Shown here piece by piece: positions 16,186-18,642 of a stretch of DNA of 30,756 nucleotides (position 1 is its first letter; each line of letters starts with the position of its first letter). This stretch comes from Verrucomicrobiota bacterium (GTDB taxonomy: Bacteria; Verrucomicrobiota; Verrucomicrobiia; Limisphaerales; CANJXF01): contig JBBQRQ010000061.1 of the NCBI GenBank assembly GCA_038214755.1, forward strand, positions 1 to 30,756, given 5' to 3'. The translations under genes and the position numbers were made by a program. The notes beneath the pieces were generated by a model. That model saw only the letters and a program-made list of their open reading frames with translations, was not told the origin of the DNA and made no database searches.

Positions 16186-18642
16186 ATGAAATTGGAACAT
16201 CGAACATCGAACATCGAACACTCAACATCGAGTGAGTCGCGCCAAGAAAGATTTCATCGGAGTTCGATGTTCGATGTTCGATGTTCGATGTTGGTTTTCT
16301 CATCCTTCTTTGTTTTGTTGCCTTCAACTGCCTCCGCTGAAGTGGATGTTTCCAAACTCCCTCTATCCGCCCAAACGCAAATTGATTTCGCGCGGGACAT
16401 CCAACCCATTTTTGAAAAGTCCTGCTTGCGTTGTCATGGCCCGGAAAAACCGAAAAGCCATTTCCGCCTCGACAGTCGCGAGGCGGCGTTGAAAGGCGGA
16501 GAAAATGGCGTCGATGTTTTTCCCGGCGACAGCGCGAAAAGCCCGTTGATCCATTACGTCGCCGGTCTCGTCGAAGACATGCAAATGCCGCCGCCCGGAA
16601 AAGCCGAACCGCTCACGCCAGCGCAAATCGGTTTGCTCAGAGCGTGGATCGATCAAGGCGCAAATTGGTCGAGCGTCAATGCCGGGTCGCAAATCGCATT
16701 TTCCATCGCGCCAACTTTTCGTTTCATCCATGTCGAGGGCGATAAGAAAAATTTTCGCGCAATCGAAGGACATCGCGATGGCCCGTCCGCCGGTCTGGAA
16801 AGTTTTTCGTTCAAAGAAAAAGTTTCCAAGACCACCACGATCTCCGCCGAAGGCCGCGCGCTCGCCCGGGAAAATGATTTCGCAGGGAAGTTGTCGCTCG
16901 ACAAAACCGAGACAGGTTTCATTCGTGGAGGCGTCGAGCAATGGCGAAAGTATTACGACGACAGCGGAGTTTTTTACGAGCCGTTCACCCCGTCGTGGTT
17001 CGACTTGAATCGCGATCTGCACTTGGATATTGGCCGCGCCTGGATTGATTTCGGATTGGAACTGCCGCGCTGGCCGCAAATGATTTTCGGCTACGAGTAT
17101 CAATGGAAAGATGGCGCGAAATCCACTTTGCAATTTGGGACCGTCAGCGAAAAAAAAATTTTCCCATCGTCCAAAGAAATCAAGGAGCGGACCCACATTT
17201 TAAAATTTGATCTGGTCCACGAATTTCTCGACTGGCGCATCGAAGACAATGCCCGCGTCGAATTTTATAATTTGCAGACCCGCCGCGAGAACGTGAATCA
17301 ATTCACGTTTGGTCCGCAGCCCGACAGCCTCTCGCGCATCGAGGAAGGCGCTCGCCACACGATGGGTTTGAACACCATTCGCGCCGAGCGACAAATCGGC
17401 GACTGGCTTTTTTTGGCGGGCGGTTATTTTTATTCGAGATTTGACGGCGACGCATCCTACGACCAGTTGACGCTCGACAGCGCGGGAATTCCGGTCAATG
17501 GAGTTTTTTGGTTTAGCGACAACATCATCTTAAAAAACGAAACGCATCTGTTCAGTTTGAGCAGCGCGTTGACGGGCATCGAAGGTTTGAGCGTCTCCGC
17601 CTCGCTGCAAAATGAATGGGGCCATCAGGAAGGTTTTGGAAAAACTCATCTGGACGAAGGCGATCCGAGTGATCCGGCCTCGTTCCTTTTGCAGCCCGCG
17701 ACCATCGATTCCAACTTGGACAAGGAAAAGTTTTCAGAAAACTTTGCCGTGCGGTTCACCAAAATTCCGTGGACGGTTTTGTTCGCGGACGCGCGTTGGG
17801 AAGACCAGCAAATCGGTCAATTTGAAGAACAGATCGGCGATGGCAGTCAGGCTTTTTTGCGCGACACCGATGCCCACAGTGTGCGGCAAAATTATCAAAT
17901 CGGTTTCAATACCTCGCCCTGGCGCTCCGTTTCTTTTACCACGCAATACCAAAAGAAAATAAACGACAGCGACTACAACCATTTTCCGGATATTTCCATC
18001 GAAGGCGATGGCTACTCGGCATTCATCCGCGAACGGGAAATTAACACTGACGAAATTTCGGCCAGGCTCGTCGTGAAGCCAGCGAAGTGGTTGAAAACGA
18101 CTTTGTCGTATCGACTGGTCGAAACGGATTATTCCACATCGACCGATCCGGTTTCCAACGGAACGAACGCGCCCATTTCTCCCGGCGGAAATATTTTCGC
18201 AGGCGACCATGACAGCCATATTTTCAGTTTGAACGCGACGGTCACGCCAATCGCGCGCCTGAATCTCTCGACCACATTTTCCTACACGAAGTCGCGAACG
18301 GTCACCGCCGCTCAGGGGAATCTGTCCATCGTTCCTTACGCCGGAGATGTTTTCAGCGTCATCGGCAGCGCCAATTTTGCTTTGAACAAAACGACGGATT
18401 TGCAGGCGGTCTATTCTTTTTCAAAAGCGAATTACGGACAACACCATTTCGGCGAGGGCATTCCATTGGGAATCGATTACACGCGACACGTCGTCGGTTT
18501 TGGCGTGGGAAAAAAATGGACGGACTATTTGAGCACGAACTTGCGCTACAATTTTTATCATTACGCGGAGCCGAGTTCGGATGACCAGAACAATTATGTA
18601 GCGCACGGAATATTCGCCACGCTGAGTTTGAAATGGCCATGA
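16186..18642 (+). CDS. MtrB/PioB-like outer-membrane beta-barrel fused to an N-terminal planctomycete-type monoheme cytochrome c domain
   Basis: aa 66-161: IDFARDIQPIFEKSCLRCHG..RLDSREAALKGG..MQMPP..LRAWIDQGA (PSCyt1-like; CXXCH at 16423-16437). Then ~650 aa of amphipathic, aromatic-rich beta-strands ending GIFATLSLKWP. Abuts the multiheme gene (TGA-ATG). Confidence 0.85.
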   Translation: MKLEHRTSNIEHSTSSESRQERFHRSSMFDVRCSMLVFSSFFVLLPSTASAEVDVSKLPLSAQTQIDFARDIQPIFEKSCLRCHGPEKPKSHFRLDSREAALKGGENGVDVFPGDSAKSPLIHYVAGLVEDMQMPPPGKAEPLTPAQIGLLRAWIDQGANWSSVNAGSQIAFSIAPTFRFIHVEGDKKNFRAIEGHRDGPSAGLESFSFKEKVSKTTTISAEGRALARENDFAGKLSLDKTETGFIRGGVEQWRKYYDDSGVFYEPFTPSWFDLNRDLHLDIGRAWIDFGLELPRWPQMIFGYEYQWKDGAKSTLQFGTVSEKKIFPSSKEIKERTHILKFDLVHEFLDWRIEDNARVEFYNLQTRRENVNQFTFGPQPDSLSRIEEGARHTMGLNTIRAERQIGDWLFLAGGYFYSRFDGDASYDQLTLDSAGIPVNGVFWFSDNIILKNETHLFSLSSALTGIEGLSVSASLQNEWGHQEGFGKTHLDEGDPSDPASFLLQPATIDSNLDKEKFSENFAVRFTKIPWTVLFADARWEDQQIGQFEEQIGDGSQAFLRDTDAHSVRQNYQIGFNTSPWRSVSFTTQYQKKINDSDYNHFPDISIEGDGYSAFIREREINTDEISARLVVKPAKWLKTTLSYRLVETDYSTSTDPVSNGTNAPISPGGNIFAGDHDSHIFSLNATVTPIARLNLSTTFSYTKSRTVTAAQGNLSIVPYAGDVFSVIGSANFALNKTTDLQAVYSFSKANYGQHHFGEGIPLGIDYTRHVVGFGVGKKWTDYLSTNLRYNFYHYAEPSSDDQNNYVAHGIFATLSLKWP
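16195..16293. repeat. Inverted pair of heptamer arrays (GAACATC)x5 / (GATGTTC)x4-5
   Basis: Forward array 16195-16229, reverse-complement array 16260-16293, 30 nt spacer; lies in the 5' end of the porin ORF. Confidence 0.9.

What the first reader, a model, noticed from the sequence alone, without database searches (positions are those of the whole stretch)
16186..18642. MtrB-sized porin with a fused planctomycete-type monoheme cytochrome c
Seen: one continuous ORF with a signal peptide, a ~95 aa CLRCH domain with a candidate Met ligand (MQMPP), and a ~650 aa beta-barrel-like region. Known: MtrB/PioB carry no heme; Cyc2 is a monoheme-porin fusion but has a smaller barrel and no multiheme partner. 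Inference: a hybrid design in which the periplasmic redox partner is covalently tethered to the barrel, giving an 8+1 heme wire. A His/Met heme would probably be the high-potential end, which would fit electron uptake.
Basis: partly seen in the sequence, partly recalled or inferred. Interest (0 to 1): 0.85.

Follow-up and report, generated by a model that had tools for sequence, protein, structure and literature searches.

The report
Membrane electron wire with built-in heme
A sediment bacterium encodes an outer-membrane pore that appears to sheathe an eight-heme electron wire and carries its own ninth heme on the inner side, a compact two-gene variant of known electron conduits whose direction of electron flow is still untested.

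Summary
The 818-codon ORF is a PSCyt1 monoheme domain (CLRCH, invariant Met134) joined by about 10 residues to a 26-strand barrel with the MtrB fold (Z 22.1). It follows an octaheme lipoprotein gene. A complex model (0.91, best control 0.00) sheathes the octaheme in the barrel; named contacts include the PSCyt1 heme-motif edge and the octaheme heme-1 region, which fits an 8+1 wire.

The fusion defines one clade of a verrucomicrobial porin family. Unfused paralogs nearly always have extra cytochromes nearby (61 of 62 loci); fused loci have none (0 of 71).

The parent porin-octaheme system is published (He 2017). A Limisphaera porin with one heme motif was noted in 2026. I found no description of the PSCyt1 domain or its docking. 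This scan saw the module before in another genome.

Uptake is plausible (FoxE/PccH-like fold, no quinol dehydrogenase found, ACIII and oxidases present) but unproven. His/Met ligation does not fix direction, and the short tether cannot cross the periplasm. Verdict: new variant of a known kind.

The parts
15367..16185 (+). Octaheme c-type cytochrome lipoprotein, related to MtrA/DmsE/GSU2203 (7 CxxCH plus 1 CxxxxCH; lipobox Cys34 at 15466-15468; 16 invariant His, i.e. eight bis-His hemes by inference)
   Evidence: TIGR03508 144.8 bits, below cut-off 192.2; a Cys upstream of heme 1 in 127 of 127 homologs, 23-27 residues before it in 126
16186..18642 (+). Fused PSCyt1 monoheme and 26-strand MtrB-fold porin, 818 aa (791 aa from the database start at 16267)
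16186..16338 (+). N-terminal region: in-frame short repeats, then a hydrophobic signal peptide ending in an A-x-A site (start codon uncertain)
   Evidence: sequence; repeat depth spikes; low pLDDT at P0002 residues 1-22
16339..16668 (+). PSCyt1 monoheme cytochrome c domain (class I-like fold, closest solved structures FoxE and PccH)
   Evidence: (pLDDT 94.5)
16423..16437 (+). Heme-binding motif CLRCH (ORF residues 80-84); its flank is named in the modelled interface with the octaheme
16585..16587 (+). Met134, probable distal heme ligand
   Evidence: invariant in 116 of 116 and 57 of 57; ligation inferred, not modelled with heme
16669..16698 (+). Short linker (~10 aa) between heme domain and strand 1
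   Evidence: 7-12 residues in 55 of 57 fused homologs
16693..18639 (+). 26-strand outer-membrane beta-barrel with four short N-terminal strands and a helix between strands 1 and 2, as in MtrB
   Evidence: MtrB description in PMC7198977

Best explanation
A two-gene outer-membrane electron conduit of the verrucomicrobial porin-octaheme family.

Step 1 (modelled, about 0.9): the lipid-anchored octaheme sits inside the 26-strand barrel as MtrA sits in MtrB, with heme 1 at the periplasmic mouth.
Step 2 (modelled and inferred, about 0.75): the fused PSCyt1 domain lies in the periplasm and packs its heme edge against the heme-1 end, as a fixed ninth, His/Met heme that takes the docking site used by soluble carriers in unfused paralogs.
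Step 3 (inferred, about 0.5): the conduit most likely runs inward, from extracellular reductants such as reduced humic quinones or Fe(II), through bis-His hemes to the His/Met heme, then by an unidentified diffusible or multidomain periplasmic partner to alternative complex III, the heme-copper oxidases or the genome's many PSCyt1 proteins. It would supplement a heterotrophic metabolism rather than support autotrophy.
For: Architecture: MtrB fold. Complex ipSAE 0.91, best of 3 controls 0.00; runs agree in at least 89% of contacts; partner pLDDT at least 79. The mark was reached by 116 of 157 solved complexes and 2 of 215 mismatched pairs, and the pass may reflect likeness to solved MtrAB. The interface list includes ORF residues 77-78, 81-83, 85-88 and 96 of the heme domain and octaheme residues 57-78 around heme 1; strands 1-4 have no named contacts, as reported for MtrB.

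Partner exclusivity within 6 kb: fused 0 of 71 loci with any other cytochrome (the one flagged, L020, is its own octaheme). Unfused 61 of 62 (soluble monoheme 38, ImcH-like 26, other multiheme 56). Within the window's order, 0 of 15 against 33 of 34.

The acidic patch around octaheme heme 1 in unfused systems (mean net charge -2.1, facing Lys-rich carriers of mean +2.2) is neutral in fused systems (0.0), while the rest of the protein differs little.

Direction: the domain's closest solved folds are FoxE (Z 10.3, 99 aligned, rmsd 2.9) and PccH (Z 5.8), both linked to electron uptake. This genome has ACIII and two heme-copper oxidase subunit I genes; no NapC/NirT or ImcH-like protein was found (97% complete). 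ImcH-like genes occur in 12 of 44 fused-only against 23 of 31 unfused-only genomes, the soluble carrier in 13 of 44 against 30 of 31. Median PSCyt1 matches are 30 against 3.
Against: No redox potential, heme stain or phenotype exists. The complex was folded without hemes, and the tool listed no residue pairs for the heme domain, so heme-to-heme distance is not shown. The fusion arose apparently once, so all fused-versus-unfused contrasts are one evolutionary comparison. A shared fold shows no function, and PccH is low-potential. The unfused paralogs' soluble carrier is also His/Met-like and sits with ImcH, an export-pathway protein. The only cultured relatives with a matching gene pair are reported to reduce Fe(III), though they also carry an unfused-type cluster. 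12 of 44 fused-only genomes do have ImcH-like genes. RuBisCO was not found in this genome. PSCyt1 is a promiscuous module (28 matches in this genome), so its presence need not signal a special role.
Confidence: 0.5

Rival explanations
1. Same 8+1 architecture, but it exports electrons for anaerobic or microoxic respiration of Fe(III) chelates or humic quinones. The fused heme is the entry point, fed by ACIII or another quinol oxidase through a soluble carrier.
For: Unfused paralogs cluster with ImcH-like and cytochrome b-multiheme (CbcL-like) genes. Limisphaera strains respire ferric citrate and ferrihydrite and carry a matching gene pair. He 2017 and Fiorito 2026 read the family as export machinery.
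Against: No surface multiheme or quinol dehydrogenase in 71 of 71 fused loci. ImcH-like genes were not found in 32 of 44 fused-only genomes, including this one. If usual potentials hold (recalled), His/Met to bis-His transfer is uphill.
Confidence: 0.22
2. A non-respiratory conduit under envelope-stress control. It senses or buffers extracellular redox, reduces metals (Cu, Fe) for uptake or detoxification, or supplies electrons to secreted or periplasmic enzymes.
For: An ECF sigma factor lies within 6 kb of 23 of 71 fused loci, a neighbouring unannotated gene (possible anti-sigma) of 21 of 71, and a CusF-SCO1 gene of 9 of 71. Two cupredoxin-Ig genes follow the porin in this window. No respiratory partner is co-encoded.
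Against: The ECF pair and CusF-SCO1 are absent from this window's neighbourhood and from most loci. No shared upstream promoter motif was found in 63 fused upstream regions. Other recurrent neighbours are housekeeping-type genes, consistent with plain synteny.
Confidence: 0.2
3. The PSCyt1 domain is a passenger or structural cap, gained once from an abundant mobile domain family, and is not on the electron path.
For: 28 PSCyt1 matches in this genome, up to 67% identical to PSCyt1 domains of unrelated large proteins. Unfused barrels with the same octaheme are common.
Against: CxxCH and Met are invariant in 57 of 57 fused domains spanning 25-71% overall identity. Apart from 5'-truncated records, no loss is seen in 62 fused-clade rows. 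The heme-motif edge is the part named in the interface, and the facing octaheme surface is remodelled.
Confidence: 0.08

Closest known systems
Verrucomicrobial porin-multiheme cytochrome complex (He et al. 2017, PMC5615132; sections 12 and 13 read, supplements searched except one image-only PDF)
   Same: Porin of at least 20 strands beside an eight-heme cytochrome in Verrucomicrobia, proposed for extracellular electron transfer.
   Different: The sections read mention no heme in the porin and state that PSCyt products were predicted periplasmic or cytoplasmic rather than outer-membrane. Several of their clusters have an extracellular multiheme partner, which fits the unfused paralog. Sequence identity with their loci was not tested.
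Limisphaera porin/MHC pair NGO38488/NGO38489 (Life 2026, PMC13608581; section 3.3.5, passages and Table S5g read)
   Same: Lipoprotein-type cytochrome with 6-7 counted motifs next to a 20-26-strand porin with one N-terminal heme motif; almost certainly this subfamily by architecture.
   Different: Mentioned in one sentence and likened to an MtrB motif. No PSCyt1 domain, ligand, structure or role is given. I could not link the accessions by sequence.
MtrAB (6R2Q), MtoAB, PioAB
   Same: 26-strand barrel with four short first strands and a capping helix; MtrA-related bis-His wire; two-component form without MtrC as in MtoAB/PioAB.
   Different: 11-12% identity to MtrB and no PF11854/NCBIfam hit. 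Eight rather than ten hemes. The cytochrome is a lipoprotein. The barrel carries its own cytochrome domain, and no MtoD/PioC/CymA-type gene is co-encoded.
Cyc2 / Cyc572 fused cytochrome-porins
   Same: N-terminal monoheme domain fused to an outer-membrane barrel, modelled on the periplasmic side (PMC13741234 passages).
   Different: Cyc2 has about 16 strands and no multiheme insert. Here there are 26 strands, a full ~110-aa PSCyt1 domain and an obligate octaheme neighbour. Homology to Cyc2 was not tested directly.
GSU2204-family CXXCH-containing (seleno)protein with GSU2203 decaheme (NCBIfam NF041027/NF041028)
   Same: Remote homologs: 11 of 33 unfused barrels hit NF041027 weakly (best E 5e-10), and the octaheme's best NCBIfam hit is GSU2203. 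The family name implies a CxxCH in a related barrel, a possible precedent.
   Different: This protein has no NF041027 hit. I could not retrieve members to see whether their motif is a cytochrome domain.
EET4 of Limisphaerales (Fiorito et al. 2026, bioRxiv 10.64898/2026.05.27.727921; abstract, sections 9 and 12, passages read)
   Same: Porin-multiheme clusters in the same order, modelled as Mtr-like conduits and transcribed in peat.
   Different: Described with extracellular and periplasmic multiheme partners. The main text has no hit for fused, monoheme or planctomycete. Supplements were not seen and could describe the fused form.

Membership tests
MtrB/PioB porin family | Sequence match to PF11854 or the NCBIfam MtrB/PioB model | tested here: not met
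   No hit at E<=0.1. Only 2 of 120 listed unfused relatives carry PF11854.
MtrB/PioB porin family | 26-strand barrel with MtrB fold, short strands 1-4, helix between strands 1 and 2 | tested here: met
   On a predicted model: (Z 22.1, rmsd 3.7, 576 aligned); MtrB features from PMC7198977.
MtrAB/MtoAB/PioAB complexes | Adjacent decaheme MtrA/DmsE-family cytochrome | tested here: not met
   Eight motifs; TIGR03508 144.8 bits against cut-off 192.2. Homologous but shorter.
MtrAB/MtoAB/PioAB complexes | Multiheme cytochrome sheathed in the barrel | tested here: met
   Model only: 0.91 against best control 0.00; may pass by likeness to solved MtrAB.
MtrCAB / MtoABD operons | Co-encoded surface multiheme (MtrC) or soluble periplasmic carrier and quinol oxidoreductase (MtoD, CymA/ImoA) | tested here: not met
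   0 of 71 fused loci within 6 kb.
MtrAB/MtoAB/PioAB complexes | Measured transmembrane electron transfer | not testable with these tools
   Needs proteoliposome or genetic assays.
Cyc2 | N-terminal monoheme c fused to an outer-membrane barrel | tested here: met
Cyc2 | Small (~16-strand) barrel acting without a multiheme insert | tested here: not met
   26 strands; octaheme gene directly upstream wherever the contig extends that far; Cyc2 strand count from PMC13741234.
Cyc2 | Sequence homology to Cyc2 clusters | not tested
   No Cyc2 profile was run.
Verrucomicrobial PCC (He 2017) | Porin of at least 20 strands adjacent to an eight-heme cytochrome in Verrucomicrobia | tested here: met
Verrucomicrobial PCC (He 2017) | Homology to the published IMG loci | not testable with these tools
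   Locus tags are in a figure that is not held.
PSCyt1 domain (PF07635) | Score above the Pfam gathering cut-off, with CxxCH and the downstream MP motif | tested here: met
   59 bits against 22; motifs conserved.
GSU2204 family (NF041027) | Score above the curated cut-off (350 bits) | tested here: not met
   No hit for this protein or genome; weak hits for 11 of 33 unfused relatives.

The most novel reading that the evidence does not exclude
Limisphaerales have split one porin-octaheme family into an export paralog (with ImcH-like, CbcL-like, soluble and surface cytochromes) and a self-contained nine-heme uptake paralog whose first periplasmic acceptor is built into the porin. Common heterotrophs of soils, sediments and lakes would then harvest electrons from reduced humics or Fe(II) with a conduit that current iron-gene profiles miss. 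PSCyt1 would be a FoxE-like electron socket linking that conduit to the dozens of uncharacterised PSCyt proteins of PVC bacteria.
Probability: 0.3. Interest if true: 0.82.

Novelty: new variant of a known kind. Interest (0 to 1): 0.6.

Why it matters
It combines two conduit designs usually treated as separate: Cyc2-type heme-porin fusion and MtrAB-type multiheme-in-barrel. The barrel family is common in the window's order (223 of 301 genomes searched), and cultured Limisphaera appear to carry both paralogs, so direction and partners can be tested by deletion and electrochemistry. It also gives a tractable context for PSCyt1, an abundant PVC domain of unknown function. If the fused form takes up electrons, it adds an unrecognised oxidative arm to humic and iron redox cycling.

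Tried and rejected
Assembly chimera: rejected. TonB-dependent receptor: rejected; these score Z<=13.9 against 22.1 for MtrB, and the model has 26 strands. 'Homologs always separate' and 'always fused': both false.

Tethered shuttle equivalent to MtoD: rejected on linker length. The soluble carriers in unfused loci are a different class I family; my PSCyt1 profile did not flag them.

Natural octaheme-porin triple fusion in L149: the frame changes after heme 7, heme 8 is lost and an internal signal peptide remains, so it is most likely an indel.

Shared ECF promoter upstream of fused operons: none found by spaced k-mer counts in 63 regions. Linking the family by sequence to Limisphaera accessions: failed. 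GSU2204 members: not retrieved. Expression: no RNA holder listed, which is no evidence either way.

Sequence search of solved structures: only weak hits for the heme domain (hydrazine synthase alpha E 0.013, PccH E 0.17) and none meaningful for the barrel profile. Foldseek on the heme domain alone gave no E<=0.001 hit. A FoxE redox potential was not found in the papers read. A source for the MtrB N-terminal CXXC was not found, so that point is recalled only. No AU test was run on the tree.

Rows dropped before counts: L191 (duplicate of L056), L140 and L190 (5'-truncated); L055 and L057-L080 matched only the heme domain; 47 of 150 representatives were truncated or unclear.
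Full report
1. Observation. The window holds one open frame at 16186-18642 (818 aa), starting immediately after the stop of a 272-aa cytochrome gene at 15367-16185. Pfam finds PSCyt1 at residues 80-138 (E 7e-16) and nothing over the remaining 650 residues; NCBIfam finds no porin family. An AlphaFold2 model built from 116 homologs (mean pLDDT 88, pTM 0.80) shows a small helical domain followed by 26 long strands. Foldseek ranks MtrB first (E 1e-14). VIA-align gives Z 22.1, rmsd 3.7 A over 576 residues at 11% identity, against 13.9 for the next chain. 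The model has four short first strands and a helix between strands 1 and 2, features described for MtrB (PMC7198977 passages). The fusion is not an artefact: 2083 homologs were found among 8000 candidates scored, 119 of the 120 listed carry PF07635, and a single unitig spans the junction (possibly the source run). The CxxCH is kept in 115 of 116 homologs and Met134 in 116 of 116; the first Met of MQMPP is variable.

2. The partner. The upstream gene has seven CxxCH motifs and one CxxxxCH. Its best NCBIfam hits are the GSU2203 and DmsE decaheme families, both below cut-off; the C-terminal six motifs align with the second half of the DmsE model, so by inference two hemes are missing from the N-terminal half. 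Sixteen His are invariant in 118 homologs, consistent with eight bis-His hemes. A Cys precedes heme 1 in 127 of 127 homologs, at 23-27 residues after a hydrophobic stretch in 126 of them, so the protein is read as a lipoprotein.

3. The complex. ESMFold2 on porin plus octaheme, without hemes, scored 0.91 (best of three controls 0.00). Runs agree in at least 89% of contacts and partner pLDDT is at least 79. The mark was reached by 116 of 157 solved complexes and 2 of 215 mismatched pairs, counts that hold only roughly with my own alignments, and the pass may reflect likeness to solved MtrAB. Contacts run along strands 7-24, with none named on strands 1-4, as in MtrAB. The confident interface also includes heme-domain residues 77-78, 81-83, 85-88 and 96, which flank CLRCH, and octaheme residues 57-78, which surround heme 1. 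The tool did not list pairs for these residues, so that they touch each other is my inference. In MtrAB, heme A1 projects about 20 A into the periplasm and is the proposed docking site for soluble carriers.

4. Two subfamilies. A barrel-only search found the family in 223 of 301 genomes of the window's order and 32 of 401 across the phylum. Record titles of close relatives name Limisphaerales, Pedosphaera and Verrucomicrobiota; some titles are evidently mislabelled. Of 150 representatives, 68 were fused, 35 ran from signal peptide straight into the barrel, and 47 were truncated or unclear. In a FastTree tree of 124 barrel domains, all 62 fused rows form one side of a branch (support 98); the only unfused row inside is cut at a contig end (no AU test, midpoint root). 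Several genomes hold both forms.

Neighbourhoods differ sharply. Within 6 kb, 61 of 62 unfused loci have other cytochromes: a Lys-rich soluble class I monoheme (38), an ImcH-like NapC/NirT heptaheme (26), or another multiheme such as a secreted nonaheme or a cytochrome b-multiheme (56). None of 71 fused loci does; the one flagged is its own octaheme. With at least 4 kb on both sides the counts are 54 of 54 and 0 of 42; within the order, 33 of 34 and 0 of 15. The first 55 fused loci came from a search biased to fused forms, and the carrier and ImcH profiles were built from unfused loci. A motif-only scan of fused loci found no comparable soluble monoheme, only a few stand-alone or split PSCyt1 domains and one unclassified monoheme.

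At genome level, 12 of 44 fused-only against 23 of 31 unfused-only genomes have an ImcH-like gene, and 13 of 44 against 30 of 31 have the soluble carrier (two more fused-only genomes had weak hits near 1e-11). Median PSCyt1 matches are 30 against 3. The 'only' labels rest on single matches and may miss paralogs. Around octaheme heme 1 (mature residues 22-38), mean net charge is -2.1 in unfused and 0.0 in fused systems, with little difference elsewhere. This fits loss of an electrostatic docking patch once the partner is tethered. All these contrasts trace to one fusion event and are not independent tests.

5. How it likely works. The heme domain is periplasmic because it precedes strand 1 of an even-stranded barrel (established topology). 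Its linker is 7-12 residues in 55 of 57 sequences, so it cannot ferry electrons to the inner membrane. It is a fixed ninth heme, and another partner is still needed. Folded alone (pLDDT 94.5), its closest solved structures among 48,161 chains are FoxE (Z 10.3, 99 aligned, rmsd 2.9) and PccH (Z 5.8). FoxE hemes are described as Met-ligated (PMC10654088 passages), which supports Met134 as ligand. PccH is needed for electron uptake from electrodes but lies at -35 mV (PMC13591261 passages).

This genome (97% complete) has alternative complex III, two heme-copper oxidase subunit I genes, cytochrome c assembly genes and 28 PSCyt1 matches. No NapC/NirT, ImcH-like or soluble-carrier gene and no RuBisCO were found. 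He 2017 reports PSCyt genes as richer in oxic-layer genomes. Together this makes inward flow in an oxygen-respiring heterotroph the likeliest reading, at about even odds. Against it: the soluble carrier of the ImcH-linked paralog is itself His/Met-like, and Limisphaera strains reduce Fe(III). ECF sigma (23 of 71) and CusF-SCO1 (9 of 71) neighbours keep a stress or metal role open.

6. Prior knowledge. He et al. 2017 described verrucomicrobial porins of at least 20 strands beside octaheme cytochromes, without mention of a porin heme in the sections read. [quoted passage not shown] These match the fused and unfused types by architecture; I could not confirm this by sequence. That paper likens the motif to MtrB's; from memory, MtrB has a CXXC rather than a heme site. 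The 2026 peat preprint describes EET4 in Limisphaerales with multiheme partners; its closed supplements may bear on novelty. The GSU2204 family name suggests a CxxCH in a remotely related barrel. Ten full-text searches surfaced no paper describing a PSCyt1-porin fusion; most subscription journals are not covered. One earlier finding of this scan reports the same module in another genome.

7. Verdict. Real, conserved and structurally coherent: a new variant of a known kind of conduit, noted once in passing in print but not characterised. The 8+1 architecture is well supported by models; direction is open. Interest 0.6.

Noticed in passing
window 14916-15020 (+): Truncated remnant of a prepilin-type N-terminal methylation (DUF1559-like) gene upstream of the octaheme. 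Intact relatives lie near 20 of 71 fused loci.
   Followed up: partly
window 18801-21056 and 21414-22241 (+): Two secreted cupredoxin plus Ig-domain (Big_7) proteins directly downstream of the porin. Possible surface redox partners, but not recurrent beside other fused loci.
   Followed up: partly
window 15110-15250, 16190-16295, 18656-18730: Short imperfect repeats and hairpin-like elements that occur in very many copies in the run (depth spikes); one is in frame in the porin's N-terminus.
   Followed up: no
L111 3341-10582 (-): Unfused sister of the fused clade: octaheme, porin, tetraheme, Rieske protein, cytochrome b and nonaheme in one run, i.e. a bc-type module beside the conduit. A stand-alone PSCyt1 gene lies 4 kb upstream at 14499-14912.
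   Followed up: partly
L155-L188 (many), e.g. L164 5137-6858 (+): Conserved ~570-aa secreted nonaheme cytochrome upstream of unfused systems in the window's order; candidate MtrC analogue with no family model covering it.
   Followed up: partly
L149 8006-11284 (-): Octaheme runs in frame into the porin after heme 7; probably an indel, not a true triple fusion.
   Followed up: yes
L028, L031, L038, L054, L139, L193: Porin genes split by frameshifts or stops; sequencing error or decay not distinguished.
   Followed up: no
L151 2060-7869 (own genome, contig C32): Decaheme cytochrome with a membrane protein, a cNMP-binding-like ferredoxin protein and an FAD/2Fe-2S-type oxidoreductase; an uncharacterised redox module.
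   Followed up: no
L154 2821-7572 (own genome, contig C149): Probable outer-membrane barrel gene followed by a multiheme protein (9 motifs before the contig end, weak ExtM similarity); a second possible conduit.
   Followed up: no
P0319, P0368: Unfused barrel relatives named from Thermodesulfobacteriota and Syntrophotaleaceae, so the family extends beyond Verrucomicrobiota.
   Followed up: no
L004, L011, L012, L014, L022, L032, L033, L041, L042, L044: Record titles give Bifidobacterium/Bifidobacteriaceae or Akkermansia, but the barrels with full-length rows fall among Limisphaerales-type sequences; the titles are probably wrong.
   Followed up: no
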